Part shown: piece by piece, positions 16,401 to 62,315 of the stretch | Numbering within the stretch: position 1 is the stretch's first letter | Layout of the letters: every line of letters starts with the position of its first letter | From: an uncultured virus (IMG/VR IMGVR_UViG_3300020048_000119) | Taxonomy: Duplodnaviria; Heunggongvirae; Uroviricota; Caudoviricetes | Virus record (IMG/VR): IMGVR_UViG_3300020048_000119 | Span: 1-64,000 of that record | Strand: one strand, 5' to 3' | Length of the DNA: 64,000 bases | The notes under the pieces: model-generated | The model's database searches: none | What the model was told of the DNA's origin: nothing | The model's input: the letters and a program-made list of their open reading frames with translations, nothing else | Translations under genes and position numbers: made by a program

Positions 16401-19400
16401 ATATGACTAGGGATATTACCAATCTTATCAGAGATAGACTCATAGTATTTCTGAGTATCTATGCGTTCAACTGCTTGTGCAGGCTGTGCAGCGTTTGCCT
16501 TAGCTGCTAGTCTAGCTAGTTCATACTTCATAGCATCAAAGCCTTGTAGATACTCTGTAGCTAATTTTTCTAACTGCTTACCTACTATATCAGCATACAT
16601 TTTTGGTATTTGTTTTTTCAAAACCATATCGAACTTTGTTACAGCTGTTTTGAAATCACCAGAAGTTTCAGAACTCATTAGTAGCTCATCAAACGTCTTT
16701 GTTAGAGAACGCATAGCTCCAATGCCATGCTTTATATCAGATACAAGTGATTCAACTCTACGTATATCAGGGATCAGATTAGAAGGTTTGCTAAAGAACT
16801 TTTCATCGCGCATACTTACAGACAGTCTATTAAGTATAGACTTATTATCGGGTGCAGCAGGTGTCCTATAAGCACTATCTATTGCGTCTGTAGCTGTAGT
16901 ATATCCAAGCTTTGCTTCTGGTGCTGTTACATAGCCTATAGTCTGTGAAAGGATATGCTTTAACTGTCCATTAATCCTAGAGGATGAAGCTGTTGAATTT
17001 GCTATTTCGTCTACTTTCTTTTTCATCTCTCTGAATGTTAAAACATTTACAGAAGTCTTATCAAACATCTTAGGCGTGTCTCTGTAGTACTTCTGGGCCA
17101 TACTTATTTGTTCTTTGACAAGCCTAATAGCCTCGCTGGTATTGCCAGTAGGCTTATTAAATTTATCTATAAGGAATCTAACAGTTTCTGCTATTGTTTC
17201 TTCACTAATCTTTTCAGTCGGTGTAGATATAGCCTCAGCATACGCCTTTGTGACTGCTGCCAATACCTTAGGCATCTTTTCCATCTCTTTAGCTGTTATC
17301 TCTGTAGCTTCACCAAGATTGTTTATTGTGTTAAAGAAGCTCTTAAATGCTTTGTACTCTCCCTTATTAGGCAAATCGTTTACTACCTTAGTCAGTGCTT
17401 CGTCTACATTGTTTGCGTTGGGTGTATAGAGTTCATTCATTATACCAGCGCCTAAGCTGTAGCGTGTCCTGAACATTTCATCAGTGCTTAAAAGCACCTC
17501 TTGGATCTTAGAAAGCCTAGTGGCCATAATTCTAAGCGTACTACTATCAGCTGCACGATTAGTCTGTCCTGCAACACCTATAAAACGATCTACTAAGTCA
17601 GCTTGCTTTGCAGCAGCCATACTCTGTGTGCGCATCTCAGTTGTTGCAGAATAAAGTAGTCCTCTACTCTCTTCTATAATTTTTCTATTTTTAGCTATAG
17701 AACCTTCGCCGCCTTTATTAAGCAACTTATCAATGGCTTCCTGTAATGCGTTTGGATTAGTGGCGCTTTTAGAACTTCTAATAATTTCACGAAGCTCATC
17801 GCCTTTTATTTTTACTATTCTTTCTAACTGCAACTCTGCAAAAACAGCATTTTTCTTGCTACCTGTTTCGCTGAATGTTGTCATAATGTCTACTAACTGC
17901 TTTGTATCTTTTGTTAGACTTTCTTGTGCTTTTATTAGGTTAAGAATATGATCCCTTTTTGAAGCGTATAGTTCTAGATCAGGTGATGTAACCGCTCCGT
18001 CGCCAAAACCAGCCGCTGACTTAGATACAGTTACTATATCTTTATTTAGCTGATTAAAGAGTTTACGCATGTCACTGCTGGAAGCATTAACATCCATTAC
18101 TGTAGCTATTAACTGTCTATAACCTTTGTCTAGTATAGCTATATCTTCATTTATGGATGTACCTACTCCTAATACATCGCTTAAGCCTAGTGCTTTGAAT
18201 TGTTCAGCATATTGGCTTACACCGGCATTATCGCCGTACTTACCCATATATTTTGAAAACTCTTTCTGTAAGCCTTCAAGAGCTGTATTTAAGTCTGCAG
18301 CTAATCTTTTTGCAACAGCTGAATCACGTCCGCCATTAGGTAGCTTAGATAGCTCATCGTTCATTGCAACTACTTCGTTGTATATGCCCTGCAATCTACC
18401 TGTATCGCTTGCTAACTTAGCACGTTCTATAAAGTTATATTTCTTCATTTCAGCACTATCAGAAAGCGTGACTAGTTTAAGCATTTCACGTTCTTTACCG
18501 ATATAGGAATCTAACATAATGTCAAGTGCAGGAAGTCCGCCCCTAAACTTAGCGGTGTTAACATCGTCACCCATCTTGCTTAAAAGACTAGCGAACTTCT
18601 TATCATACTCTTTAAAAGTCGCATCAAGATTACTTATTCCTTTTGCAACTGCTCTGTCTGAAAGATATACGCTTTTAAGTGCGCCCTTCATCTCATCTAC
18701 TGGAAATGCTTTTGCAAACTTAACACCAAGTGCACCAAGCGCGGCTGTTCCAACAACACTACCTATAATAGCTGGCCATTTTCCAAACTCATCAGTGATT
18801 GCATCCTGGAAAGAATCATCAAAACTAAACTTAGGATATTCAGGTAACGTAGCGCTACTTTCCTCTGGGAACTTAAATGAAGGCATCTGCGGTAGATTAC
18901 CATATGGGTTATCTGGGTTCTTATCAAGTAAAGAAACTAAATCGCCAGCTGCAGCATTAGTATCTTTTTGAACTTGATAGACTTCGTCAAAACCAGCTAC
19001 CCAGTCTTTCTTAACTGATGAAGCTGCTTTCTTTGAAGAGTCCGCTATTTTTTCAAATGTATCTACACCAGTAGAGGCAATGTTAGTAAATGGTTCACTA
19101 AATGCAGACTGATACTTTGCAATAGCTTCATTATATTTTTCCATGTCTTTAGCGTATTCATCATAGGCGTTACTATAGTCGGTAGGTAATATGCCTGTAC
19201 GTTTACCTGAGACGCCCGCCATAGCTTTATCAAGAAGACCAAAAGCTCCCGCAGTTGCAACAGCCCCTGCAGCTAATCCTGATAGCACCATAGTAACTGT
19301 TTTAACTACTGGATTCATACGTGCGAATATTGGCAGTATAGTTCCTAAAGTAAGTCCTAAACCAGCTAAACTACGTGTAGCTGCCAATGCACCTTGACCT

Positions 19401-20644
19401 ACAAAACTTAGTGCTTTTGCGGCCTTATAACCTATGAATAATACTGCTAGGCCTTTGCCTGCTAATTCCGCGCCGCTACCAAGCATCCCAGTTTTTTCTG
19501 TGGCCCACTCAACTACTTTTATTAGATTAGTTAAAGCACTTGCTAGAGCCTGTATGCCATAGCTGTACATAGCTAATTCAGCATATGCAGCCTGGCCAAG
19601 TACCTTAAGTAAAGGCTGAGCAGCTACAAATAGTTCACCAAGTCTATCTCGTAAGTTGCCTAGGTTACTGGTTAGTGTTAGTACAAATTCTGCTAACTGA
19701 CCAGAAGCATCTGCATCCAGTAGAATAGATTTAACTAGGCCAGCAGAACCCAGTGTTGTTACTGTATCTCTATATTTATCCAAGGCATCTCTGACTACTG
19801 TTATCTTATCTGCAAAATCAGCATAGGCATTTGCACCTAACTGTTGGACTATAATTAAAGAGTTATCTTTTAGGGTATCAGACATACCAGTCATAGTCTC
19901 GGCAATTCTATCAGCTGCTCCAGCATACCTTTCCTCTAATCCTTTAAGTATAGCTACTACTGCTTTTTCAGCCGGAACCCACTGTGTGCCTATACGAGCT
20001 ATTTGCTCGCCAGTAAGGTTCATTTGTTCTTGTAAGATTTCATAGATTGGTATATTAGCATTTGCTAACTGTCTAATTTCTTCATTTGCTAGGCGCCCTT
20101 TAGTAAGCATTTGGCCTAAGCCGAATGTTATACGCTGTAGATTCTGATCAGTAGCTCCAGTAGCCGCTGCAGTGTCTGTAATAACACCTAAGAAACTTTT
20201 TGTTGTTTCCATACCTACGCCCATGGCTTGCATGTACTTAGATAGTGAAATAGCTTCAGTAGTACTAAAAGGTGTTCTAGAGGCGAATAGATTTATCTCA
20301 CGTAGGTATGCAGCAGCTTTAGCTGATTTGTCTGCACCCTTTACGAAGTATTCCATGGAAATAGCAGCAGTCTCCATATCTTTCGAGAACTGGAGAGCTG
20401 CTGCACTTGCTTCAATCATTACACCAGATAAAGAGTAGAAGGCCTGAGATACCATAATACCAGCAACGATACGTTTAGTATCTTTAATCCCGGCGGTAGC
20501 ATCACTCCAACGCTTTTGAAAGACCTCAGTAGCTTCGTTCATGGTGTCCATCGCTGAACCCCAACCTACCTTCATATCTTTCACTGCTTTATTCATGTTA
20601 GTATTATCAACGTCAATTTTAATGTTTCCTACCATAAATGCCAT
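10445..20644 (-). CDS. Tape measure protein (3399 aa) with an internal nuclease-like domain
   Basis: N-terminal tape-measure motif (FASRTPF...GQMLTKGRLANEEIRQL..NIPIYEIL), hydrophobic segments, and C-terminal MASGGI...GESG.EAVVPL. Lies between the chaperone and Dit. Confidence 0.92.
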   Translation of the reverse strand: MAFMVGNIKIDVDNTNMNKAVKDMKVGWGSAMDTMNEATEVFQKRWSDATAGIKDTKRIVAGIMVSQAFYSLSGVMIEASAAALQFSKDMETAAISMEYFVKGADKSAKAAAYLREINLFASRTPFSTTEAISLSKYMQAMGVGMETTKSFLGVITDTAAATGATDQNLQRITFGLGQMLTKGRLANEEIRQLANANIPIYEILQEQMNLTGEQIARIGTQWVPAEKAVVAILKGLEERYAGAADRIAETMTGMSDTLKDNSLIIVQQLGANAYADFADKITVVRDALDKYRDTVTTLGSAGLVKSILLDADASGQLAEFVLTLTSNLGNLRDRLGELFVAAQPLLKVLGQAAYAELAMYSYGIQALASALTNLIKVVEWATEKTGMLGSGAELAGKGLAVLFIGYKAAKALSFVGQGALAATRSLAGLGLTLGTILPIFARMNPVVKTVTMVLSGLAAGAVATAGAFGLLDKAMAGVSGKRTGILPTDYSNAYDEYAKDMEKYNEAIAKYQSAFSEPFTNIASTGVDTFEKIADSSKKAASSVKKDWVAGFDEVYQVQKDTNAAAGDLVSLLDKNPDNPYGNLPQMPSFKFPEESSATLPEYPKFSFDDSFQDAITDEFGKWPAIIGSVVGTAALGALGVKFAKAFPVDEMKGALKSVYLSDRAVAKGISNLDATFKEYDKKFASLLSKMGDDVNTAKFRGGLPALDIMLDSYIGKEREMLKLVTLSDSAEMKKYNFIERAKLASDTGRLQGIYNEVVAMNDELSKLPNGGRDSAVAKRLAADLNTALEGLQKEFSKYMGKYGDNAGVSQYAEQFKALGLSDVLGVGTSINEDIAILDKGYRQLIATVMDVNASSSDMRKLFNQLNKDIVTVSKSAAGFGDGAVTSPDLELYASKRDHILNLIKAQESLTKDTKQLVDIMTTFSETGSKKNAVFAELQLERIVKIKGDELREIIRSSKSATNPNALQEAIDKLLNKGGEGSIAKNRKIIEESRGLLYSATTEMRTQSMAAAKQADLVDRFIGVAGQTNRAADSSTLRIMATRLSKIQEVLLSTDEMFRTRYSLGAGIMNELYTPNANNVDEALTKVVNDLPNKGEYKAFKSFFNTINNLGEATEITAKEMEKMPKVLAAVTKAYAEAISTPTEKISEETIAETVRFLIDKFNKPTGNTSEAIRLVKEQISMAQKYYRDTPKMFDKTSVNVLTFREMKKKVDEIANSTASSSRINGQLKHILSQTIGYVTAPEAKLGYTTATDAIDSAYRTPAAPDNKSILNRLSVSMRDEKFFSKPSNLIPDIRRVESLVSDIKHGIGAMRSLTKTFDELLMSSETSGDFKTAVTKFDMVLKKQIPKMYADIVGKQLEKLATEYLQGFDAMKYELARLAAKANAAQPAQAVERIDTQKYYESISDKIGNIPSHIKAVGNEAAVASISHIQKLNNSFWNLKTALLEGTEQLVTDAEDYALAVSRLPKTIMESGIFDATKVLPSGTDQMGLQGLSDFGRTMSSTIVNDMTEAIKNDIRVADYVPKEPGKTTKAIMEVGVQLEDIVIGMFNQMAAQLKVDAKLKKGPIAVDWKSMVAAQIDAMLGDMPVDIKTMSQSKFEGVKFASSMGGETMDTVIKDLSNSIMSFDDMLRWFPEYAHQLGLQAIALGQNQAGMLVFNRDALKEIREAGSVVKPGLNYAKYDQFDGEDFKRAIQNDIMRALTDNGTKAFNVNDAKQYMHLVMVDIPETFKWSLKEASVIQIAKKNIIAATSKTDFFGELLTSFLKSGEEVNMSGITRQVDFKNFKWLKAVTGEELDKTGIRNGRILSGELEDIFKRLQFNPNPAVNAEAMKSLKAVLDKIDKALKTDKRVGANKNIFFNSLNAYAPEEPTTGATKAIETTYENMRKIRDGLEELTKSTFSLQKLPRQAMLLQDASKKINEYVGQTLVSLFDNKTIGKFKDALYFAKAALRNMAELPSSTVDTNKALAVVEQMVSDVSDIQKQFKDGVAKPSSKARVQYVENITRTLGGIEDYKIFLEKVSTMFKGGAFRTATGTGKAELLKALEEILDMSVGQADVYLSTLDAVQQLEKIAEEEVATTYKRIKITEEQIKAATEFDDYTRQLLDNAIEAHDMLSEKVVGLKDAPAIDLTQQYRSLDAIAEFTAAAAEEAKAMSENAGVVEEAAKKTRTRTKKKTADAEIVEEVTTKINNSAKLFEIGSNVFDRATGRFATAVETLGERIGRLSGGSSEAIKEIGKISKALTGEAAAKASSFILGEIRTRMPNMKEAGIPGIDGADLLRVGLADLAGEAVSVAVTAYQETTTMKSLYASIEKTMSSQARTNAEMGEEYKTLYANWEAQATDNNKTFGEYMFEQMGLIGMQQTAFEELNSAIALIGQAALAGAIAGTVIGPEGTIGGGAGAAIGTTIALIGVAIGETINSAISAGMGSWTNSMMYGEKILQNWDRLTEIQKQAASALILSDYGSSVLSTMELKKILAGEGGATRSTATTEQVMPGGRGRRLVSTTEYLEGGKFKEDMLDAMFQYGAISESNWKVFRKEYSEQEQDAVFEKYFQGSTKQFAAAFEKFMPSMAPSLYRALKEQGIDEQPRDWSQVTDKAMPTVINMMQRVVDNMESIYARTELIPTKYFDSPTFNRTGTTSSYLGPEFDISALNADFLAELNATLGINFTKLTTEITKVIPGLGYNESADLASGKDNRFGPTIEGTSLSSGAVMNIEMAKLNDNIIGWTQRLPDSINIGNFSINDASILAQAGIQINSDGTITFMKAMNEAISSSNRNIDLDPNDFSQSILSGLSKDGLSFTFDKIEGSELYASKLNINDATVANKMITARFKLSENIAGDIGQAQEDILDGLGRNLEGGFFEITNTAVLSGKQTVSSWLEGVKGKLTGDTIRVLQELDERIATSTGNGMPITREAIAKAADGIVVAMSTRFSEITPEEIAGLQTVGVSVIEDKGDKAIAVINQLGDRLKDGVTFVAADVWSQLSPAASKAMTALGVTTTETAGLVMVDLNGVFKNGAADIVDLFVDEPEMWDQIPAALRDVIADRSGVEVKNGMLVIHTELMNGFVKIEDSWFQSWDTLEPKVKDALDDGLITTQNGMAKITQVSAEEAAKVTDGIVKPFQDLPPEIQAQLKASNDAAAGGWYVIRNTTETAFMGVTAAINAQMSLSKKTLDATLGEMVDAIVLAMSKIEDLKELSGTLSTGNPFTKNDNETKGATYTIGSTMYTEIWKSGVLQGYRYKNSKGEWVDIKKLPYQGTGNITKPDQMASGGIIGKHGLYEMGESGLREAVVPLDRKSPLREIGRTLAKHMPATFDISGDMMTQLAMAMGMSNGGVASPVKQIQTVQPQDSSNIARQVLESVLPMLASSQQQMTPIYVGTLIADDRGIKELEKKLYDVRRVETLRR

Positions 20645-31365: not shown

Positions 31366-32258
31366 GAGTCTTCCCCCTTCACAAGCACGCGCGTTGCGGT
31401 TTCTACTGTTACTTCTCTTCCCTCAAACACACCCGCTCCTCGCAGAATGGCCGCTATAGTCGCTATGTCCTCAGGCTTAGTCAGTGTATGTGTCCTAGTA
31501 TCGTTTTCTACTATTGCTGGTTGGTTTACTTTCTCCTCAGTCATAGTCACAATCTTCCTCTCTAGGTCAGTCGCCACTTTGAAGAGGTTTACGATCTCGC
31601 CGGGCCGAAGCGTTTTAGGATCTATGATGTCTATTGCTTCGCTTAACTTCTTTAAGAGCCTTCCAGACATGTCTTGCTGCTTGGTATTCATCTCCCGGAC
31701 TGCTTCTACTCGCTCTGTCTGAATTCCAGCATCGCAGAAGCGGGCCCAGGCCATTATGCGGATCTTATAGCTCCAACGTTGCGCTGCATTAACTACTGTG
31801 CCACTTGCGTAGCCTGTTTTTTCAGCTAATTCACTATATGTAGGTAGTTTAAGCGGATAATAGCTCCTATAAGCCTCCCAGATCCTCCAATCTGTATCGG
31901 ATTCTTCTGGTTGACGCTCAAAATACTCCAAACCATATTCTTTGGCTAATTCCATCCATGTACTGTTAGTTTTCTTCGCAAGATTGGTTTGTTTATCATC
32001 CAGAATGGCACAATGCACACACAAATGAGGCTTTTCTTTGGACGGTCTTTCTGTCGTATCACAGTTTTCACATTTCCAATCACTCTCTTTAAGTGCTACG
32101 TAGGCGCCTATTTCTACTGCTTTAGCTTTCTGCTCTGCCGATAAGTGGAGGGGCAAAGCTTTTTCAGGCCATAATGGGTCTGGATGTAGAGGCGTTCGCG
32201 AGTCTTTTTCTCGTTGCGCATCTACTATTTTGTCTATTATCTTGTCCATTGCAATCAC
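31362..32258 (-). CDS. Probable terminase small subunit
   Basis: First gene of the packaging operon. Zn finger, then ERQPEES...W..YR, an HTH-like YSELAEKTG and a coiled coil. Confidence 0.65.
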   Translation of the reverse strand: MIAMDKIIDKIVDAQREKDSRTPLHPDPLWPEKALPLHLSAEQKAKAVEIGAYVALKESDWKCENCDTTERPSKEKPHLCVHCAILDDKQTNLAKKTNSTWMELAKEYGLEYFERQPEESDTDWRIWEAYRSYYPLKLPTYSELAEKTGYASGTVVNAAQRWSYKIRIMAWARFCDAGIQTERVEAVREMNTKQQDMSGRLLKKLSEAIDIIDPKTLRPGEIVNLFKVATDLERKIVTMTEEKVNQPAIVENDTRTHTLTKPEDIATIAAILRGAGVFEGREVTVETATRVLVKGEDS

Positions 32259-32260
32259 CT

Positions 32261-32300
32261 CTACTATATAATACGTGTTTATGAGACCTTTGGTACCAGC
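32261..32300 (-). promoter_or_regulatory. Putative late promoter
   Basis: GCTGGTAC-N16-ACGTATTATATAGTAG directly upstream of the packaging operon. Confidence 0.65.
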
Positions 32301-32505
32301 CTTTTTGCATATTTTTAGCCTAATTTTTCATATTGGGGCTTTATATGCTTCGTGATGTCGCTATTTTCTAATATTTGAACTATTTGTGGTTATGGGGATG
32401 GAATTAGGAGTGGAATGGACTATCGGCTTGGGCATTCGAGGGCCGGTATAGGACATATGCAACACAGCTATGATCCATAATATTTGAACATGAAAGGACG
32501 TGTAA

Positions 32506-32943
32506 ATGATGTTAAAAATCTATTTCGATCTTGACGGTACTGTTTATGACCTGTACTCCGTTGCTAATTGGGAGTACAAGCTAAGGCATAGTGATGCCTC
32601 TGTGTTTACAGATGGCAGAGCTATGACTGACATGGCAGTACTAGGTAAAAGATTACAAGATGTAGAGATAGGTGTAATAACATGGCTGCCTAAAGAGAGC
32701 ACTCAGGAATACAGGGATGAATGTACACAAAAGAAACTGTATTGGATAGCAGAAAACATGCCGTATGTAACAGAGATACATGTACTAGAGTACGGTACAC
32801 CAAAGCATAGTGTAGGTACGATAGAGGATATACTAGTAGATGATAATGCTAAGGTATTAGAAGATTGGATAGCAGCAGGTAGAAAGGTTATAGATGCCAA
32901 GTATATAGATATCATAGACGAAAAGATAAAGGAGGTGATATAG
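32506..32943 (+). CDS. HAD-family 5'(3')-deoxyribonucleotidase-like protein
   Basis: YFDLDGT motif I, K..WI, and ILVDDN motif IV. Confidence 0.8.
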   Translation: MMLKIYFDLDGTVYDLYSVANWEYKLRHSDASVFTDGRAMTDMAVLGKRLQDVEIGVITWLPKESTQEYRDECTQKKLYWIAENMPYVTEIHVLEYGTPKHSVGTIEDILVDDNAKVLEDWIAAGRKVIDAKYIDIIDEKIKEVI

Positions 32944-33069
32944 ATGAAGGTAAGAAAAGGAAGCATAGCGTACTACGCCTGCAAAGGTAAGTACGCTATA
33001 GCTACGGCAGTAATGCTGTATGTAGGTTACATGGCCTGCATGCACATTGCTATCGTAGCTACTAGGTAG
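32944..33069 (+). CDS. 41-aa basic/hydrophobic peptide (not in the ORF track)
   Basis: RBS AAGGAGGTGA; MKVRKGSIAYYACKGKYAIATAVMLYVGYMACMHIAIVATR*. Confidence 0.55.
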   Translation: MKVRKGSIAYYACKGKYAIATAVMLYVGYMACMHIAIVATR

Positions 33070-33174
33070 TAGTTAGGGGACATGTCTTAGGACGTGTCTC
33101 TTATAGTACTACTTAGTACTAAAGAACCTTGGCAACTGAATAATACGATGGGCATTCGAAAGGATGTAACTAAA

Positions 33175-33498
33175 ATGGAACTAACAAAGAAAATGATTAG
33201 ATATCTACTGATTAAACTAGATAAAGTAGATAGCTACTGCAGACAAAGCTTCCATGATGAACTTGTAAGCAGACTAACAGAAGATCTAATAGATGCTGAG
33301 GCAAAAAGACTAGCAACTAAAGCAGCATATAATAGAGCGTCTAGGGGTGCATACATACAGAAGAATCAGTACCTATTTAAGCAGTTCATGGAAGCTAAGT
33401 ACGATCCTGATCTTGCTGAAGAACTGCCTACTAATCCATATGTGCTAGAACAGTTGCTTATAGCAAGAGCAGAAATGGGTAAGCAGTATGTTAAATAG
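33175..33498 (+). CDS. Hypothetical early protein
   Basis: Start moved to MELTKK, which follows GAAAGGA. Confidence 0.7.
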   Translation: MELTKKMIRYLLIKLDKVDSYCRQSFHDELVSRLTEDLIDAEAKRLATKAAYNRASRGAYIQKNQYLFKQFMEAKYDPDLAEELPTNPYVLEQLLIARAEMGKQYVK

Positions 33499-33760
33499 TA
33501 AAGAGATTGAGATCCTTAATCGTATGCTTGATGAGGCATATCCACAACCTATGTCTAATGTACTACTGTGGGCTGTTAAAGGTCTAACAGACGCTAGAGA
33601 TAAGATGATTGCAAATAACTGTTGTATAACAATAGGTGATGAACCTATAGATAATCAGTTCATAAAGGCAATGCAAAAGTGTGAGAATGCATTAGAAGCA
33701 GAAAGTAAAAGAGCTAGAGAAGAAGCTGACAGACTATACTACGCGCAGTATAAGAAATAG
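33488..33760 (+). CDS. Hypothetical early protein
   Basis: Overlaps the previous gene's stop (translational coupling). Confidence 0.65.
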   Translation: MLNSKEIEILNRMLDEAYPQPMSNVLLWAVKGLTDARDKMIANNCCITIGDEPIDNQFIKAMQKCENALEAESKRAREEADRLYYAQYKK

Positions 33761-33800
33761 TTAAAACTACTAGCCCATCGTATTATTCAGTTGCCAAAAG

Positions 33801-34120
33801 CACATTGATAACTACATAGCCCAGCAAGGTATACTAAAAGGAGTATACTATGAAACTATCATTAAGAGAAGCTAAGGTTATAGCTTTAACCTTAGACTAT
33901 GCACTGTACCAGATTGACTCATCACATGTTGATGTGTTAGAAACTACTAAGAAGAGATCATCACAGATGGATGAGCTGGCAAGACTACTACTTAAAATAA
34001 GAAAAGAATATGACATGGACTATGACCTAGACTTTGGTTATAGGTTAGCTGGACTAGAAGAGTTACTGTTAAAATAAGTTAAAACTACGGGCCTTGCTGG
34101 GCTATGTAGCTACCAATGTG
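33801..34120 (+). repeat. Inverted-repeat pair 2 (27/29) enclosing one gene
   Basis: CACATTGATAACTACATAGCCCAGCAAGG at 33801-33829 versus CCTTGCTGGGCTATGTAGCTACCAATGTG at 34092-34120. Confidence 0.95.
33850..34077 (+). CDS. Hypothetical early protein
   Basis: RBS AAAGGAG. Confidence 0.7.
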   Translation: MKLSLREAKVIALTLDYALYQIDSSHVDVLETTKKRSSQMDELARLLLKIRKEYDMDYDLDFGYRLAGLEELLLK

Positions 34121-34128
34121 TAGCTTAC

Positions 34129-34750
34129 CTTGACAACTTAATATTGCCCTACGTAGAAAGTGAAACTGAAATGAAACAAATACTACTACCTGACTGGCAA
34201 GATGTAATGGACCATCCAGAAGACAGACTACACTATCACAAAGCACACTTTAACTATGGTTTAGATGCTCTTGAAGCCTATACCAAAGATATGCTAAAAG
34301 AAGCAGCTACTAGACAAGATGCAGAAATGATTCGTCTAGTTGCTGATAGCATGGTAAAATGTTTCAATCAACTATACTGCGATGTTAACCAAGGCTTCCC
34401 TGGATATGGTCCAGCAGAATGGCCATGCAAATCAGATAAGCCATCCCTTGTGAAAACATTCATGAATAAAAACAGAGAGGAGTTTATAAAGATAAGGGAT
34501 AACACTACTGAGTATGACTGGCTAGTATACATGGATAATCTACTGGAGAACGAACCATATACTGATAAGGACATATTTGGTGTGCTTGGTAGCCTGCTAC
34601 TGACCTATGACAATCTACCTGATGATTGTGTAGATGAGAAAACAATGACAGACTACCTGATCATAGAGCTCAACCATGCCATAGTTGAGATGTATGACAT
34701 ATAAGTTATAGCTAAGTAGTTAAATCGTAGGGCAATGTTAAGTTGTCAAG
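34129..34750 (+). repeat. Inverted-repeat pair 3 (24/25, one G-U wobble) enclosing one gene
   Basis: CTTGACAACTTAATATTGCCCTACG at 34129-34153 versus CGTAGGGCAATGTTAAGTTGTCAAG at 34726-34750. Confidence 0.95.
34171..34704 (+). CDS. Hypothetical acidic early protein
   Basis: Start moved to MKQILL, which follows AGAAAGTGA. Confidence 0.7.
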   Translation: MKQILLPDWQDVMDHPEDRLHYHKAHFNYGLDALEAYTKDMLKEAATRQDAEMIRLVADSMVKCFNQLYCDVNQGFPGYGPAEWPCKSDKPSLVKTFMNKNREEFIKIRDNTTEYDWLVYMDNLLENEPYTDKDIFGVLGSLLLTYDNLPDDCVDEKTMTDYLIIELNHAIVEMYDI

Positions 34751-34752
34751 AT

Positions 34753-34927
34753 GTACCTTTGAAAACTGAATAATCTCAGTGAAAAGCTTAATAGCTTACA
34801 TTGAGCTATCCTTTCAAAATATGAAAGGAGGTGATGCTTATAGTGTAAAACGGTCTGGTCGATTCCAATCCGTTAAAACTACCAGTATAGTGCATTAAAT
34901 TGCACATCTCTTGAAAGGAGAACTACA
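34753..34927 (+). promoter_or_regulatory. boxA-like site followed by a structured leader
   Basis: GTACCTTTGAAAACTGAATA, then four consecutive hairpins. Confidence 0.55.
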
Positions 34928-35617
34928 ATGAACGTTAAAAAGGTAAGAATCACTGAGGAACTCACTTGGAGCTCCCTGAAGGACAGATTCGTTATTGGTA
35001 ACTTCACCCATGAGGGTGTATCCCTGGCGATCAATCAGCTGAAGGATGCCATTGATAATGGTACCCTGTTGGCTATGGTTGTTAACTGCGCAGATAAAAT
35101 GCACGACGGTAACGTGACGGAGGTAGTAGAAGCTATTAAGAGAAATCTTAGCAGCAATGCTACCAACTTCAAGAAGAAGGAGTACAATCCTACTGCAGAT
35201 CAGGACAATCTTAGATTGTCTCTGCTTTGGAACTTCTTCGACGGTCTCTCCATCAAAGAGAAGAAGGTAACCGAAGGGCTACCTGAGACTCTTAAGGAGA
35301 AAGCTCTCTGGGCACTAACTACTGAGGAGATTGAAGGATTGGATAAGTCCAACTACAAGATCCTTGATAGCGTGTATCAGAACATGCAGAGTCATAAATC
35401 TAAGACTGGTAAGGAAGTAGTACTTGCTGCTGATCCTCAGTACCTAGATAGACTGGCCCTCATCTCCAAGTACAGGTCTGAATGTAGAGCTGCTGCTAAG
35501 AAGGCTGAGTCTGAAGTAGTAATACCTACTGAGCTTCTTACTAAGGCTGCTGCTGGAAAGCTTACCAAAGCTGATCAGGCTGAACTCAGTGAGTTCCTCA
35601 TGAGACTACGCAAGTAG
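34928..35617 (+). CDS. Hypothetical alpha-helical protein
   Basis: RBS GAAAGGAG; followed by a terminator. Confidence 0.8.
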   Translation: MNVKKVRITEELTWSSLKDRFVIGNFTHEGVSLAINQLKDAIDNGTLLAMVVNCADKMHDGNVTEVVEAIKRNLSSNATNFKKKEYNPTADQDNLRLSLLWNFFDGLSIKEKKVTEGLPETLKEKALWALTTEEIEGLDKSNYKILDSVYQNMQSHKSKTGKEVVLAADPQYLDRLALISKYRSECRAAAKKAESEVVIPTELLTKAAAGKLTKADQAELSEFLMRLRK

Positions 35618-35631
35618 TCTAAACTAAGAAC

Positions 35632-35669
35632 AGGGTATAGGTTAGTAATAATCTATACCCTTTCTTTTT
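35632..35669 (+). terminator. Rho-independent terminator
   Basis: AGGGTATAG/CTATACCCT stem followed by TTCTTTTT. Confidence 0.85.
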
Positions 35670-35822
35670 ATCCGCGGCGCGGCGCCGAGCCGATCGGAAC
35701 CAGAACGTTACTGACGTTATCGGCAAGAGCAATACTCCGTAAAGCCGGCTCCCGGTATTAAAACGCACCGTACATTCCAGGCTCAGGTCCGCGGAACGGT
35801 GTCGTTCCATCTTCGATAAAAA

Positions 35823-35853
35823 GGCATACACACCGCCTTATATATAGTATATT
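35823..35853 (+). promoter_or_regulatory. Phage promoter family A, copy 1
   Basis: GG-CATACA-N17-TATATT. Confidence 0.7.
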
Positions 35854-35942
35854 ATAATTAGGAGAAGAACTGATGATCTCCGACTGGGAACAATAATGTC
35901 CACAGTATCAATGTCCGACTACCTTGAAAGGAAGTGTACCAA

Positions 35943-36689
35943 ATGGCTAAGAACGTATCCGAAATCAACCCGTTCGACTTCGCGTCGACAACTACAACAG
36001 AGAGCAATGTCCGTAAGCTCGATCACACAGCAATGTTGATCAGCACATCCAGAGCAAGAGCGATCAGCGTGATCAAGACCGTCAAAGACGGTTCACTCGA
36101 GCTCAAAGAACTGGCAAACAAAATGATGATCGACGGCATACCATCCGATCTCATCTCACTGATCAACCTGACCATCACCGAGGACGACATAAAAGAAGAT
36201 GCCAAGCTCCTGTCAACTGCAAGCGAAGAAGAACTGAGCCGCTTGTTAGAGTCAAGACGATCAGACAGAAGCAAGCTCAAGGCCAAGGGACTCAGAACAA
36301 GCTTGGATGTCACAACCGGTTACATTGCAGCAATGTACGCCGAACTACTGGTCAGAGAAGCTTGGAACAAGCCTTATGCAGCGGCTGACACCACAGTGTT
36401 CGACTCCGACGATCAGGACGCCATCAAGAAGAAGATCAAATCGCTCCAGTCCAAAAAGTGTCGACTAGCCAAGACCGCTGAATATGTGCCTGCCGACAAA
36501 GTAGAGCTCGAAGCCACAGTTGAGGAAATCAACAGGCTGTCCGCTCTAAGACCCACCGGATCGATTACGTCCAAGACGATCATCAAAAGCGAAGACGCTG
36601 AGTTGATCAGAGCTGCGATCGCCAACATGAATATCGACGAACTGCCTGCCGATCAGCAGGAAGCATTCAAGAGACTGATGGCAATCTAA
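35943..36689 (+). CDS. Hypothetical alpha-helical protein
   Basis: Has its own promoter, RBS GAAAGGAAG and a terminator; start at MAKNV. Confidence 0.8.
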   Translation: MAKNVSEINPFDFASTTTTESNVRKLDHTAMLISTSRARAISVIKTVKDGSLELKELANKMMIDGIPSDLISLINLTITEDDIKEDAKLLSTASEEELSRLLESRRSDRSKLKAKGLRTSLDVTTGYIAAMYAELLVREAWNKPYAAADTTVFDSDDQDAIKKKIKSLQSKKCRLAKTAEYVPADKVELEATVEEINRLSALRPTGSITSKTIIKSEDAELIRAAIANMNIDELPADQQEAFKRLMAI

Positions 36690-36703
36690 GCCAAGCAAGT
36701 CTG

Positions 36704-36738
36704 AAAAGAAGCCCGCCTTCATGGTGGGTTTTCTTTTT
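36704..36738 (+). terminator. Rho-independent terminator
   Basis: AAGCCCGCC-TTCAT-GGTGGGTTT followed by TCTTTTT. Confidence 0.85.
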
Positions 36739-36798
36739 GGCCCTGTCAGCCGGAATGCGCCGAGCCGATGGGCCTACTGATTAACTTAAACGGAGGGT

Positions 36799-37065
36799 AT
36801 GATAATGAACATAGAAAAGGTTAAGGAACTGATAGAGGCTAAAAGCCCCAAGAGTTCCAGGGATAAAAAGCTAATCGCGCTGTACGACCTACGTAGACAA
36901 GCAAGCGATGAGTATCTGGCACTACGCGATGCGAAATCCAATGGATGCTGCTCGGGTAAAAGCCTGTGGCAAGTGTTGGCGTATGACGAACTCATAAATG
37001 ATGCGGCCCGCGGCTGCCTGTACTTAGATGGCATGATCGACGGCATATTGAACGGAGGCGAGTAA
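36799..37065 (+). CDS. Hypothetical protein
   Basis: RBS GGAGGG. Confidence 0.65.
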   Translation: MIMNIEKVKELIEAKSPKSSRDKKLIALYDLRRQASDEYLALRDAKSNGCCSGKSLWQVLAYDELINDAARGCLYLDGMIDGILNGGE

Positions 37066-37066
37066 C

Positions 37067-37381
37067 ATGGCTAGTAGCTATGTAGTGACAGTCTGTAGTG
37101 AATACCCGATCCACGAGGCTGCTGAAGGAGGGTACTACTATGCTGGTATACATGCCAGTAAGTGGGTCATCTGTAAAAGAATGAAGACTGCCCGCAAGCT
37201 ATTCAAGCAGTGGGCCCGCGAGTATGGATATGACATGGGACGCAAGATCAAGGGACAGACCAAGCGCCGCTACCATGAAGCTGTAGAGCTGCCGCTGTCC
37301 CACTACATTGGCGAGAACTGCTACATTGTAATGCAGGGCGGCAATCGCCCATATGAGAGTGGGTGGCATCCATATGAGTAG
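37067..37381 (+). CDS. Hypothetical protein
   Basis: RBS GGAGG; aromatic-rich with an AEGGYYY motif. Confidence 0.7.
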   Translation: MASSYVVTVCSEYPIHEAAEGGYYYAGIHASKWVICKRMKTARKLFKQWAREYGYDMGRKIKGQTKRRYHEAVELPLSHYIGENCYIVMQGGNRPYESGWHPYE

Positions 37382-37592
37382 AGTTAAGAACCACCCATGC
37401 GACTTGGGTGACTGTCCGTTCGGCGCGCATGGTGGCATGGACTGTTATAACTACTGTGGGTTGGGTGCTGACGAGGACAGCGGGCGCGAATACGATGAGC
37501 CCACGTTTGAGGATGTCTACAACAGCCAAGAGATAGTAGTAGATAGAGACGACCCGACCGATATCCGGTCTATCCCGCTGCTGTGGCGATAA
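37374..37592 (+). CDS. Small Cys-rich acidic protein
   Basis: Start at MSRVKN overlapping the previous stop; C-x4-C...C-x3-C. Confidence 0.55.
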   Translation: MSRVKNHPCDLGDCPFGAHGGMDCYNYCGLGADEDSGREYDEPTFEDVYNSQEIVVDRDDPTDIRSIPLLWR

Positions 37593-37612
37593 GAACTGAA
37601 TAGATAAAAGCT

Positions 37613-37653
37613 GAAGGACTGCTAGTGAGTGATTGCTGGCAGTCCTTCTTTTT
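37613..37653 (+). terminator. Rho-independent terminator ending the plus-strand block
   Basis: GAAGGACTGCTAG/CTGGCAGTCCTTC stem followed by TTTTT. Confidence 0.88.
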
Positions 37654-37789
37654 ACGTTGCATGGGCTGTGGAGCTGAGCGCTCTGAGCAGTAGGTGGGCT
37701 GGCGGTCCTGCATGATTTTCGGGCTATTTTCAATTGTTTTTAGCATAAACGACCAGGCTGTAAACAAATAGTTCCATTGACCCTTATTT

Positions 37790-38210
37790 CAAATCCGTAT
37801 ACGGGTTATTGTAAGATTGTAAGATTGTAAGATTGTAAGATTTGTAAGATTGTAAGATTTGTGGGGTATATAGGGCCCTGAAAATATTTACAACGATTTC
37901 TTCTTTTCCATTTTAGTTTCGCCCGCTCTGTCTCATTCCTACTATGACTAGTTTCATCTTTCTATTCTACTGTCAATCTATGCTTATTATTATATCTATT
38001 ATATTATATTTTATTGAAAAAGGCGTAATAAGGTATAGAAGTAGAATCACAGGTATTCGCCCACAGACGTATGCAGTAGTTCTCACTAGCATGTCAGTTT
38101 TCCACTTTTCACATTTTTTACATACCCTATATACCCCACAAATCTTACAATCTTACAAATCTTACAATCTTACAATCTTACAATCTTACAATAACCCGTA
38201 TACGGATTTG
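37790..38210. repeat. Perfect 86-bp inverted repeat with tandem TTGTAAGA iterons (candidate origin)
   Basis: 37790-37875 is the exact reverse complement of 38125-38210, with a 249-bp spacer containing an AT-rich core. Confidence 0.95.
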
Positions 38211-38220
38211 TTTTTGAATG

Positions 38221-38248
38221 AAAAAGGACAGCATCACTGCTGCCCCTT
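38221..38248 (-). terminator. Rho-independent terminator ending the minus-strand block
   Basis: GGGGCAGCA-GTGA-TGCTGTCC followed by TTTTT on the minus strand. Confidence 0.8.
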
Positions 38249-38266
38249 AGGAATATTAGTAGTTAA

Positions 38267-38530
38267 TCAGCTAAGACCGCCATCCAGATAGCACATTGTC
38301 AGTAGAACAATGAAGACTATCAGCATCACGGCATGCGATTTTTGATAGAACCTAATCGCTTTCCTGCCTTCAACGTCAGCCATCAACTCACGCCTCAACT
38401 CTGGATTGGCACAAACTGCTAGATAAACATTCAAGTAGGTAAAGTAGGTATTGAACCAGTTCATAGGACCGAGTCCTTTAGCTGGATAACGCATTTGCTT
38501 TGCAAAGTGTTGATTAAACATGCGCTTCAA
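38267..38530 (-). CDS. Hypothetical protein with a C-terminal TM helix
   Basis: RBS AAGGAGGG; hydrophobic VMLIVFIVLLTMC. Confidence 0.6.
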   Translation of the reverse strand: MKRMFNQHFAKQMRYPAKGLGPMNWFNTYFTYLNVYLAVCANPELRRELMADVEGRKAIRFYQKSHAVMLIVFIVLLTMCYLDGGLS

Positions 38531-38828
38531 CCCTCCTTCTTAGCTCTTGCCAGTCCTCAATGTAGTCAATAATGTCTGGCAACATGCTCATATCAAAGGT
38601 ATCTTCACCTGTCTCATCATCAGTTGTTGTTCCGCCATGAAAGTAGTTCACATATGTGTATGGCACATAGCTAAACTCATCAACTTCTAGATCTTCAGGC
38701 GGTTCTTTTGGGTCAAGCATTATAACTACTATATCAGACCCGTAGTTATATGATGCAGTGAATGTATCATCTGAGTCTGTGTCTTTCACCTGTATCCACA
38801 AATGACCGCTGTCTTTTAACTCTAGCAT
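38514..38828 (-). CDS. Hypothetical acidic protein
   Basis: RBS AGGAGG; D/E-rich. Confidence 0.65.
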   Translation of the reverse strand: MLELKDSGHLWIQVKDTDSDDTFTASYNYGSDIVVIMLDPKEPPEDLEVDEFSYVPYTYVNYFHGGTTTDDETGEDTFDMSMLPDIIDYIEDWQELRRRVEAHV

Positions 38829-38839
38829 AGTAGATCCTC

Positions 38840-39601
38840 CTATCTGTCAAGGTATGATTCTATGAGCAGAACCATGTGCTCTGGATTATGATATGCTCTA
38901 TCTTGATAGATCAAACCAGTAATGTCTTCGAGTGTATGATAGCACCCGGGCCACGACCAGTTTATGCATTTATCCTCGCAGAGAGCAAAGAAGTCGTTGT
39001 TATCAATCAGTGTGTCGCGATAGAACTCTGTCTTACACTCGAGATACCATTTAATGAACGACTGAATGAGGTAGTGCAGTACATCAGGTTTGTTGAACGC
39101 ACTATCTGTATAACTCAATCCATAGTACTCAAACGCATTGACTTGATCAAACATCGCTTCATCATAGTTAGGCTGGTAGATTGCAGTCCCATGACTCTCA
39201 AACGATATGACATACTTCTCAGCATGACGTAAGTTCTCGAGCAGCATGTAGCCCTGTATCTCTGATAGTATCTCAACCATGTCACTAGTATTGTGCGCTG
39301 GTACATCGAACCACATATCATTCACAGTAGATGTCGGCATCCACATATAGTTAATACCGGCATCATTGAACATCTCAGTAGCTAGGTCTATGTCATCGAT
39401 CAGATTGAACGCTAGCTGTGTGAAATGCCTCATGGTCGTATCATCTACTATTATTGCAGTCCCATTACTATCCACTGCAATGTACGCAGTAGTAGCTGGG
39501 GGCGCGAGGTGGCCGGCCTCATATCTTTTCTGCTTCGTATGTAGCTGGGCAATAGCAATCAATATCTCTTTGCCCTTGTCTCGTCTAACGTTGTCACTCA
39601 T
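38840..39601 (-). CDS. Hypothetical protein
   Basis: Start moved to MSDNV, which follows GGAGGGG. Confidence 0.7.
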   Translation of the reverse strand: MSDNVRRDKGKEILIAIAQLHTKQKRYEAGHLAPPATTAYIAVDSNGTAIIVDDTTMRHFTQLAFNLIDDIDLATEMFNDAGINYMWMPTSTVNDMWFDVPAHNTSDMVEILSEIQGYMLLENLRHAEKYVISFESHGTAIYQPNYDEAMFDQVNAFEYYGLSYTDSAFNKPDVLHYLIQSFIKWYLECKTEFYRDTLIDNNDFFALCEDKCINWSWPGCYHTLEDITGLIYQDRAYHNPEHMVLLIESYLDR

Positions 39602-61775: not shown

Positions 61776-62315
61776 CTATAGATATTTAGACAGGTATGCC
61801 CTAAAGCTGCACTGCACTCTACTTACATAGGATGGGCTAGTTTTGCATATCTTTGCTATGTTTGTTGCATTCATTTCAAAGTCTGCAGCAAACCATACCA
61901 GTAATACACTCCTAGCTACTGTGTGCATAATTTTAGGACTGTTAACATATGTATCAAAGTGATGGTGTATAATCTCTGCCGTATCTTGGCTGACTATCTC
62001 ATCACATATGAACAAAGTATTGGCTGAAGATATTTCTACTAATGTGAAAACATTTCGCTTTGCAGCAGCTCGTTCTCGTAGTAAGTCGTTTAGCCTATTT
62101 TTAAGGACAGTACAAGCGTAGTTTGCGAAGGGTACTGACGAAAAAACATCGAATGTCTCGACAGCATCCCACAATGCCTGGAAAGCAGCACTCTCTGCAT
62201 CCTGATCATCCAGTAGATTCATGTTATGCAGCATGTAATAGACTAGCTTGTGGTGCTTATTTATTAGCTGGTTCACATCATCCTGAGTTTTGTCACGCTT
62301 GTAAATTAGGTCCAT
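61776..62315 (-). CDS. Sigma-70 family sigma factor
   Basis: Region 2 (KLVY...D........LW.AVETFD....PF..YA.....N...D..R) and a region 4 HTH (IAKI...SPSYVSRV). Confidence 0.85.
   Translation of the reverse strand: MDLIYKRDKTQDDVNQLINKHHKLVYYMLHNMNLLDDQDAESAAFQALWDAVETFDVFSSVPFANYACTVLKNRLNDLLRERAAAKRNVFTLVEISSANTLFICDEIVSQDTAEIIHHHFDTYVNSPKIMHTVARSVLLVWFAADFEMNATNIAKICKTSPSYVSRVQCSFRAYLSKYL

What the first reader, a model, noticed from the sequence alone, without database searches (positions are those of the whole stretch)
33129..34772. rRNA-operon-like cassette array: each early gene is looped out by its own boxA-headed 25-29 bp stem
Seen: three back-to-back units, only 3 and 8 nt apart. Each is bounded by a different long inverted repeat: 33129-33153/33773-33797 (25/25), 33801-33829/34092-34120 (27/29) and 34129-34153/34726-34750 (24/25, a G-U pair in plus-strand RNA). 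Each encloses RBS plus ORF(s). The arms differ between units, so pairing is maintained while sequence diverges. All left arms begin with one motif: ACCTTGGCAACTGAATA, ACATTGATAACTACATA, ACCTTGACAACTTAATA, and a fourth CCTTTGAAAACTGAATA at 34756. Established: Firmicutes rrn boxA (CTTTGAAAACT-like) overlaps the 5' strand of the long stalks that loop out 16S and 23S rRNA for RNase III. Inference: the phage mimics pre-rRNA by recruiting Nus antitermination/folding factors and releasing end-paired, exonuclease-resistant (possibly circularisable) mRNAs. An alternative is DNA-level exchangeable or invertible cassettes.
Basis: partly seen in the sequence, partly recalled or inferred. Interest (0 to 1): 0.92.

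Follow-up and report, generated by a model that had tools for sequence, protein, structure and literature searches.

The report
Phage genes wrapped like ribosomal RNA
In an uncultured phage, three neighbouring small-gene units are each enclosed by their own long stem that begins with a look-alike of the signal bacteria place before ribosomal RNA, so the phage probably borrows the host's rRNA transcription and processing machinery for its own messages.

Summary
Three abutting units at 33129-34750 are each closed by a 25-29 nt inverted repeat, far beyond chance. Every left arm starts with one motif, and a fourth, unpaired copy sits at 34756.

Two metagenome relatives (L481, L482) carry five and four such units at the same place. 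Their cargo genes are unrelated to the window's, but the helix register is fixed at 27-28 bp. A ribosome-binding site follows each left arm, and a stop-rich linker precedes each right arm. Between these relatives the arms differ at 1 of 168 positions, the interiors at 52 of 1000.

The fourth motif is identical to a 16-mer that lies in rRNA leaders or spacers in at least 46 of 126 genome matches. In 4 of 7 testable rRNA operons, that boxA lies inside the 16S leader-trailer helix.

Best reading: sense-RNA helices that copy pre-rRNA architecture. Nus-factor recruitment and RNase III cutting are inferred, not shown. A DNA-level cassette role is not excluded, because pairing is almost purely Watson-Crick and cargo swaps between relatives.

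No paper describing this layout turned up in four searches. Earlier unchecked notes from this scan describe the same class on other DNA.

The parts
33077..33100 (+). 10-bp hairpin, 25 nt upstream of the first motif. It may be a boxB-like hairpin or an attenuator.
   Evidence: Read directly from the sequence. I did not fold it separately. Hairpins also sit just upstream of the same motif in bacterial loci.
33126..33153 (+). Unit 1 left arm. The boxA-like head is ACCTTGGCAACTGAATA, followed by a unit-specific part. Pairing runs from 33129.
33175..33760 (+). Unit 1 cargo: two overlapping ORFs of 107 and 90 aa with no family match.
33761..33772 (+). Linker TTAAAACTACTA between the stop codon and the right arm.
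33773..33797 (+). Unit 1 right arm, 25 of 25 complementary to the left arm.
33801..33829 (+). Unit 2 left arm. It keeps the boxA-consensus A at both mismatched positions.
33850..34077 (+). Unit 2 cargo ORF, 75 aa, no family match.
34078..34091 (+). Linker GTTAAAACTACGGG before the right arm.
34092..34120 (+). Unit 2 right arm, 27 of 29 complementary, with two A.C mismatches in sense RNA.
34129..34153 (+). Unit 3 left arm.
34171..34704 (+). Unit 3 cargo ORF, 177 aa. No family match and no relative found.
34705..34725 (+). Stop-rich linker before the right arm.
34726..34750 (+). Unit 3 right arm, 24 of 25 complementary, with one U.G pair in sense RNA.
34756..34772 (+). Fourth, unpaired motif. 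Positions 34757-34772 are identical to a 16-mer of rRNA leaders and spacers.
   Evidence: No partner was found.
34773..34927 (+). Structured leader with a hairpin over a strong Shine-Dalgarno sequence and a mini-ORF. It lies upstream of the conserved 229-aa gene.
   Evidence: z = -5.0. The same layout occurs in L481 and L482.
34928..35617 (+). Conserved 229-aa gene that follows the array in all relatives. It ends with an ordinary terminator at 35632-35661.

Best explanation
The region is an array of standardised message cassettes built on the plan of a ribosomal RNA precursor. One plus-strand transcript runs through all units.

Each unit has four parts: a left arm (boxA-like head plus about 10 unit-specific bases), a ribosome-binding site with its cargo gene or genes, a stop-rich linker, and the exact complement of the left arm. 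In the RNA the two arms pair into a 25-29 bp helix that loops the cargo out, as the leader-trailer helix loops out 16S rRNA.

Inferred steps:
1. The boxA-like head is bound by host NusB/NusE on the elongating polymerase. This holds the 5' arm near the RNA exit until the 3' arm emerges, and it suppresses termination.
2. Host RNase III cuts the near-perfect helix, releasing single-unit messages.
3. The remaining half-helix keeps the two ends of each message clamped together and protected.

The shared flanking modules also let cargo genes be exchanged between phages by recombination.

Shown here: the repeats, their conservation, the fixed register, the mRNA-oriented flanks, the resemblance to rRNA boxA, and boxA lying inside real leader-trailer helices. 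Not shown: any RNA, any protein binding, any cleavage.
For: 1. The repeats are real and far beyond chance. A thermodynamic RNA fold of 33060-34930 pairs all three with probability about 1.

2. Relatives L481 (5 units) and L482 (4 units) have the same array upstream of the conserved 229-aa and 251-aa genes. No window cargo ORF matches an L481 or L482 cassette ORF. The downstream genes share 41-53% identity.

3. When all 12 units are aligned on the TTG of the motif, the helix runs from about -3 to +23 or +24. Pairing stops sharply outside that range. Columns +14 to +22 carry 3-4 different Watson-Crick pair types.

4. A ribosome-binding site follows each left arm within a few bases, and a stop-rich linker precedes each right arm. 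All 12 units point the same way.

5. In the three units shared by L481 and L482, the arms differ at 1 of 168 positions and the interiors at 52 of 1000 (Fisher p = 0.004). The one arm change gives U.G in sense RNA.

6. The fourth motif equals a 16-mer that lies in a 16S leader (30), a spacer (14) or just before 23S (2) among 126 genome matches. A Clostridiales spacer boxA, confirmed by Rfam between tRNAs and 23S, matches the arms at 14-18 of 21 positions.

7. In 4 of 7 rRNA operons where both leader and trailer were available, 15 of 16 boxA bases pair with the 16S trailer.

8. In other viral contigs that carry the exact 16-mer, a complement scoring at least 18 of 26 lies downstream in 12 of 73 cases. 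The figure is 1 of 68 upstream and 12 of 266 at random positions. These units each enclose one small ORF.

9. In unit 2 both mismatches keep the boxA-consensus A on the left arm. That argues for a sequence constraint on that arm beyond pairing.

10. Passages of PMC10250234 describe the E. coli 25-40 bp leader-trailer helix, its RNase III site, and the model in which boxA anchoring positions the 5' strand to meet the trailer.
Against: - No RNA data exist. Only two DNA contig runs hold the region.
- Pairing is almost purely Watson-Crick. In the 12 helices there are only about 3 U.G pairs and 2 A.C pairs, whereas the rRNA helices and some other phage units show several wobbles. This fits DNA-level maintenance as well as it fits a need for perfect dsRNA.
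- Mismatch types do not clearly favour the sense strand. The window has 1 U.G against 2 A.C. Across 14 other viral units the count is 13 G.U, 6 A.C and 10 other, with some redundancy.
- The paired arms depart from rRNA boxA at 3-4 of 16 core positions, and these positions vary between units, so Nus binding to them is uncertain.
- In L481 three units share nearly the same arm, so pairing specificity would have to come from proximity.
- The exact arm-type motif in 301 genomes of one Clostridia order was next to rRNA markers in 0 of 31 matches.
- One relative, L484, has no unit in the 1.26 kb upstream of the conserved gene.
Confidence: 0.55

Rival explanations
1. The units are DNA-level mobile or exchangeable cassettes. 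The arms would be terminal inverted repeats, as in small non-autonomous transposons, or recombination adaptors. Their conserved outer part would be recognised by an enzyme acting in trans, and the near-perfect complementarity would be maintained in DNA.
For: - Pairing is almost entirely Watson-Crick.
- Nearly identical arms recur in three L481 units.
- Cargo differs between relatives at the same position: L481 unit 2 against L482 unit 2, and L481 has an extra unit 5.
- By its abstract in the listing, PMC2649163 reports that Correia elements of Neisseria show inverted-repeat elements can also be RNase III substrates.
Against: - No transposase, integrase or invertase turned up among the 28 and 64 ORFs scanned.
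- The motif and repeats occur only in this array, not scattered through the genome.
- I saw no flanking direct repeats in the 12 units printed, judged by eye.
- All 12 units share one orientation, with a ribosome-binding site after the left arm and stops before the right arm.
- In other phages the pairing often leaves out the conserved 5' part of the motif. Terminal repeats would not do that.
Confidence: 0.2
2. The stems act in RNA only as end clamps or translation controls, for example protection from RNase J or RNase Y. Neither Nus factors nor RNase III would be involved, and the shared head would simply be the conserved half of the helix.
For: - The arms depart from rRNA boxA at 3-4 of 16 positions.
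- L024 has a 37-bp stem around the homologue of the 229-aa gene with no motif in it.
- By its abstract in the listing, PMC5737220 reports a 5'/3'-UTR interaction that controls ribonuclease action on B. subtilis hbs mRNA.
Against: - The head stays close to rRNA boxA in every unit of three phages, and the unpaired copies are the most canonical.
- Unit 2 gives up pairing in order to keep boxA-consensus bases.
- Helices 300-670 nt apart need help to form during transcription.
Confidence: 0.15
3. The arms are repeated promoters or operators, or sites of an invertible on/off switch.
For: - The head contains a TTGACA-like hexamer.
- More distant relatives (L025, L030, L007) carry inverted copies of complete sigma-70 promoters.
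- The phage encodes a sigma-like protein at 61779-62315.
Against: - There is no -10 element at a workable distance. What follows the stem is the ribosome-binding site.
- The right arms would then be antisense promoters.
- The complementary, unit-specific inner 10 bases have no role in this model.
- I found no invertase, and no inverted unit among 12.
Confidence: 0.05

Closest known systems
Bacterial rRNA operon leader and spacer: boxA plus the long leader-trailer helices around 16S and 23S rRNA, processed by RNase III
   Same: A boxA-type head sits at or in the 5' strand of a 25-40 bp long-range helix that loops out the product. In 4 of 7 operons tested, boxA itself pairs with the trailer. Several such units lie in one transcript.
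   Different: The cargo here is protein-coding, with its own ribosome-binding site. Loops are 0.3-0.7 kb rather than 1.5-2.9 kb. Helices are almost perfect Watson-Crick. Units are repeated 3-5 times back to back and their cargo is exchangeable. Nothing has been shown experimentally.
RNase III processing of the polycistronic early mRNA of phage T7 (recalled knowledge, not checked in a paper here)
   Same: A phage transcript is divided into separate messages by host RNase III at double-stranded sites between genes, and the cut ends stabilise the messages.
   Different: T7 sites are local hairpins between genes. They are not helices joining the front and back of each gene, and they have no boxA head.
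Lambda nut sites (boxA and boxB) and Nus-dependent antitermination
   Same: A phage uses a boxA element in its own transcript to recruit host Nus factors (passages of PMC10250234).
   Different: Lambda needs its N protein and a boxB hairpin. It has no long-range helix, and it has one site per operon arm. No N-like protein was identified here.
Correia repeat-enclosed elements of Neisseria (abstract of PMC2649163 in the listing)
   Same: Inverted repeats about 26 bp long that, once transcribed, bind RNase III. The elements are mobile at the DNA level.
   Different: Correia elements are about 100-155 bp, carry no gene, and are scattered through the genome in hundreds of copies.
5'/3'-UTR pairing of B. 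subtilis hbs mRNA (abstract of PMC5737220 in the listing)
   Same: Pairing of message ends controls ribonuclease access in a Firmicute.
   Different: It concerns a single host gene, with a short interaction, no boxA and no array.

Membership tests
rRNA-type boxA (NusB/NusE site) | Sequence matches the boxA of rRNA leaders and spacers | tested here: met
   This applies to the fourth, unpaired copy. Positions 34757-34772 are identical to a 16-mer that lies in 16S leaders (30), spacers (14) or just before 23S (2) among 126 genome matches. The other 80 were unclassified.
rRNA-type boxA (NusB/NusE site) | The three paired arms match boxA | tested here: inconclusive
   They match the 16-mer at 12-13 of 16 positions by my own count. 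They match a Clostridiales spacer boxA at 14-18 of 21 positions. The core positions vary between units.
rRNA-type boxA (NusB/NusE site) | Bound by NusB/NusE and modifies elongation | not testable with these tools
   This needs binding and transcription assays.
Leader-trailer processing helix | A long-range helix of roughly 25-40 bp that encloses the whole product | tested here: met
   Helices are 25-29 bp with loops of 262-619 nt. The register is fixed at 27-28 bp across 12 units.
Leader-trailer processing helix | Pairing is kept through compensatory change | tested here: inconclusive
   Different units carry 3-4 Watson-Crick pair types per column. However, the units were defined by their complementarity. 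Between true orthologues only one change was seen, C to U giving U.G.
Leader-trailer processing helix | Cut by RNase III with a 2-nt stagger | not testable with these tools
   No RNA run holds the region.
Small non-autonomous transposon with terminal inverted repeats | Scattered copies, target-site duplications, and a transposase in trans | tested here: not met
   Copies occur only in the array. I saw no flanking direct repeats, judged by eye. No transposase turned up among the ORFs scanned. A host-encoded enzyme cannot be excluded.
Integron cassette array | An integrase, and one local imperfect palindrome (attC) per cassette | tested here: not met
   There is no integrase. The complementarity is long-range. 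The local pairing at the junction between units is only about 10 of 14, read by eye.
Invertible DNA switch | A site-specific invertase, with both orientations present in the population | tested here: not met
   There is no invertase. All 12 units have one orientation. The contigs of two runs show no junctions, which is weak evidence because contigs drop rare forms.
T7-type intercistronic RNase III site | A local hairpin between genes | tested here: not met
   The arms lie 262-619 nt apart.

The most novel reading that the evidence does not exclude
Phages of several bacterial groups package accessory genes in a universal RNA cassette that copies the pre-rRNA plan. The cassette has a boxA head, a gene-specific long-range helix, a ribosome-binding site, a stop linker, and the complement of the helix arm.

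The host rRNA antitermination complex would then act as a chaperone that closes each helix during transcription, and RNase III would release end-clamped single-gene messages. The same standard flanks would make the genes freely exchangeable between phages. This would be an RNA-level counterpart of integron cassettes.
Probability: 0.35. Interest if true: 0.9.

Novelty: new variant of a known kind. Interest (0 to 1): 0.8.

Why it matters
If this holds, the host machinery thought to be dedicated to ribosome biogenesis (the Nus factor complex with RNase III) is routinely taken over by phages to fold, cut and stabilise protein-coding messages. That would give a natural, compact system for testing how boxA anchoring promotes long-range RNA pairing during transcription.

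It would also identify a recognisable signature of hypervariable accessory-gene slots in phage genomes. Such slots are likely places for host-takeover or anti-defence genes. The layout is also a ready-made design for insulated, stable expression cassettes in Firmicutes.

Tried and rejected
**Relatives and databases**
- Phage records (INPHARED), distant DNA search of 32500-35700: no match.
- Rfam on 31500-39000 at E up to 1: no hit. No tRNAs.
- The unit 3 ORF and the 251-aa protein, searched alone in viral contigs, found no relative. The two-sequence alignment found only L024's own contig.
- Relatives found by terminase (80 loci kept of 230): most lack the array. The long repeats in L025, L030 and L007 turned out to be repeated sigma-70 promoters, which are a different thing.
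- Metagenome relatives: 2 of 4 carry arrays. L483 is too short, with 269 nt upstream. L484 has no unit in 1.26 kb upstream.

**Motif scans**
- The scan of viral contigs for the arm-type pattern CCTTGRCAACTNAATA gave mostly chance hits. Only 2 of 65 had a partner of at least 18 of 26.
- The same pattern occurs in 25 of 301 genomes of one Clostridia order, with 31 matches against 8 for the reversed control. None of the 31 lies next to rRNA markers. I therefore could not show that the arm variant is any host's rRNA boxA.

**Reads**
- No RNA holder was listed. Two DNA contig runs from one study hold the region, one of them possibly the source. They show no variant letters and no junctions.

**Strand and structure tests**
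- Wobble against A.C counts in 14 other viral units: 13 against 6, with redundancy. This is too weak to settle the strand.
- The internal 5'/3' pairing in the 229-aa gene (34954-34966 / 35588-35600) has z = -3 in the window but is not conserved in L481 or L482. I dropped it.
- I considered a promoter reading of the arms and rejected it. There is no -10 element, and the conserved bases after the stem are the ribosome-binding site.

**Cargo function**
- PHROGs, Pfam and the protein atlas gave nothing for the cassette ORFs.

**Literature**
- Four searches found no paper describing boxA-headed long-range helices around phage protein genes. A fifth search failed on a term error.
- I opened no supplementary files.
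- The host was not identified.
Full report
**Setting**

The window is the first 64 kb of a 69,004-bp IMG/VR virus record rated complete. It is a tailed phage.
- Terminase, portal, major head protein and a 3399-aa tail-type protein lie on the minus strand at 1-32 kb.
- A replication module (polymerase, primase-helicase, ligase, nucleotide enzymes) lies on the minus strand at 38-64 kb.
- Between them sits a plus-strand island of small ORFs without family matches, at 32.5-37.6 kb.
- A strong Shine-Dalgarno usage and a SleB-type cell-wall hydrolase suggest a Firmicute host. The host was not identified.

**The observation**

- In 20 shuffles of the genome, the longest exact inverted repeat within 3 kb was 13-17 nt.
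- The shared head occurs at the six arms and once more, unpaired, at 34756-34772. It does not occur elsewhere without a mismatch.
- A thermodynamic fold of 33060-34930 as RNA pairs all three stems with probability close to 1. That fold ignores kinetics.
Unit 3 has a U.G pair in plus-strand RNA, but unit 2 has two A.C mismatches there.

**Relatives**

Close relatives are rare.
- Eighty loci found by terminase, at no more than 66% identity, mostly lack the feature. The long repeats in L025, L030 and L007 are inverted copies of complete sigma-70 promoters, each driving its own gene, so they are not comparable.
- The nearest relative, L024, has one unpaired head at the start of its island. It also has a 37-bp stem without the motif around the homologue of the window's 229-aa gene, with one U.G pair and one bulge.
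- An alignment of the conserved 251-aa protein found four metagenome relatives. Two of these carry arrays at the same position, directly upstream of the 229-aa and 251-aa homologues. L481 has five units and then an unpaired head. L482 has four units.
- L483 is too short to judge. L484 has no unit in the 1.26 kb upstream.
- No window cargo ORF matches a cassette ORF of L481 or L482, while the downstream genes share 41-53% identity.
- Between L481 and L482, one unit is replaced and one is extra.

**Anatomy of a unit**

I aligned all 12 units on the TTG of the head.
- The helix always runs from about -3 to +23 or +24, which is 27-28 bp.
- Beyond -5 and +25, pairing drops to chance.
- Positions +14 to +22 carry 3-4 different Watson-Crick pairs across units.
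- Because units were defined by their complementarity, this variety is expected. The informative facts are the fixed register and the sharp ends.
- A ribosome-binding site (GAAAGGA-type) begins 1-6 nt after the left arm, and the start codon follows.
- After the stop codon comes a conserved linker, GTTAAAACTAC or a stop-rich variant, and then the right arm.
- All units face the same way.

**Selection on the arms**

In the three units shared by L481 and L482, the arms differ at 1 of 168 positions and the interiors at 52 of 1000 (Fisher p = 0.004). The single arm change gives U.G in sense RNA.

**Link to rRNA**

- The 16-mer of the fourth head was scanned in one genome per species. Of these, 30 lie within 600 nt upstream of a 16S start, 14 lie in the spacer after 16S, and 2 lie just before 23S. 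The other 80 were unclassified; many sit at contig ends or in apparent mobile DNA.
- A Clostridiales contig has GTACCTTGAAAACTGAATAAT between two tRNAs and 23S, confirmed by Rfam. The arms match this sequence at 14-18 of 21 positions.
- In the 7 operons where both the leader boxA and the 16S trailer were available, 15 of 16 boxA bases pair with the trailer in 4 (L091, L149, L157, L160). One of those four, L157, is a Clostridiales genome. In 2 (Mesorhizobium), the helix starts just after boxA. One is unclear.
- Passages of PMC10250234 describe the E. coli helix (25-40 bp), its RNase III site, and the model in which boxA anchoring keeps the 5' strand at the RNA exit until the trailer appears.

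**Beyond this phage**

Among viral contigs that carry the exact 16-mer, a downstream complement of at least 18 of 26 was present in 12 of 73. The figures are 1 of 68 upstream and 12 of 266 at random positions. At the stricter cut-off of 20 or more, the counts are 4 of 73 against 0 of 266.

These units (L283, L251, L212, L247, L227, L222, L238, L282, L213 with two in tandem, L260, L250, L266, L275) each enclose one ORF of 46-172 aa. In several, the pairing begins only after the 5' half of boxA. In L283, L251 and L212, all three differences are wobbles in sense RNA.

Earlier notes of this scan, which are unchecked AI notes, describe the same class in other phages.

**Weighing the readings**

Features that favour a function in the sense transcript:
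- The mRNA-oriented flanks.
- The single orientation of all units.
- The fixed helix length.
- The copy of a real rRNA design.
- The bias towards downstream partners.
- Unit 2 keeping boxA-consensus bases at the cost of pairing.

Features that keep a DNA role open:
- The near absence of wobble pairs.
- The recurrence of one arm in three L481 units.
- The swapping of cargo.

I found no recombinase, transposase or RNase III gene among the ORFs scanned. The two readings are compatible: the standard flanks may serve expression in RNA and exchange in DNA.

Nus binding, RNase III cutting, end protection, circular RNA and 'early' timing all remain inference.

**Literature**

Four full-text searches found no description of this layout for phage protein genes. 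I read passages of PMC10250234 and PMC5725501, and only the listings and abstracts of the other papers.

Noticed in passing
window 37790-37875 / 38125-38210, and genome 65432-65728 (beyond the window): There is an 86-nt perfect inverted repeat built of tandem GATTGTAA 8-mers, and a second similar one. They sit at the two ends of the minus-strand replication module. They could be iterons of an origin or binding arrays.
   Followed up: no
window 34773-34927: A strongly structured leader (z = -5.0) lies between the unpaired boxA and the conserved 229-aa gene. A strong Shine-Dalgarno sequence is locked in a hairpin and followed by a mini-ORF. The same layout occurs in L481 and L482. It may be a regulatory leader.
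   Followed up: partly
window 33761-33772, 34078-34091, 34705-34725, 34872-34882: The element GTTAAAACTAC, or a stop-rich variant, recurs just before each right arm and again in the leader of the 229-aa gene. It is also present in L481 and L482.
   Followed up: partly
window 61779-62315 (-): A phage-encoded protein carries sigma-70 region 2. The phage therefore probably redirects host RNA polymerase for part of its programme.
   Followed up: no
L446 and L443 (Lachnospiraceae genome G005), and loci L451-L479: In Clostridia genomes, a hairpin followed by CCTTGACAACTGAATA heads non-rRNA leaders. In two cases the Rfam pemK RNA motif (RF02913) follows. There are 31 matches against 8 for the control in 301 genomes. 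BoxA-type signals may be used by mobile elements there.
   Followed up: partly
L025 4080-4115, 4464-4499, 5558-5592: A terminase relative carries three copies of one complete sigma-70 promoter, one of them facing the other way. Each drives a single gene with its own terminator.
   Followed up: yes
L024 4008-3969 / 3203-3165 (minus strand of the locus): A 37-bp long-range stem without any boxA head encloses the homologue of the window's 229-aa gene. In the window, that gene has only a weak internal pairing that is not conserved.
   Followed up: yes
window 10445-20644 (-): A 3399-aa ORF with only a weak tape-measure match over its first 720 residues.
   Followed up: no
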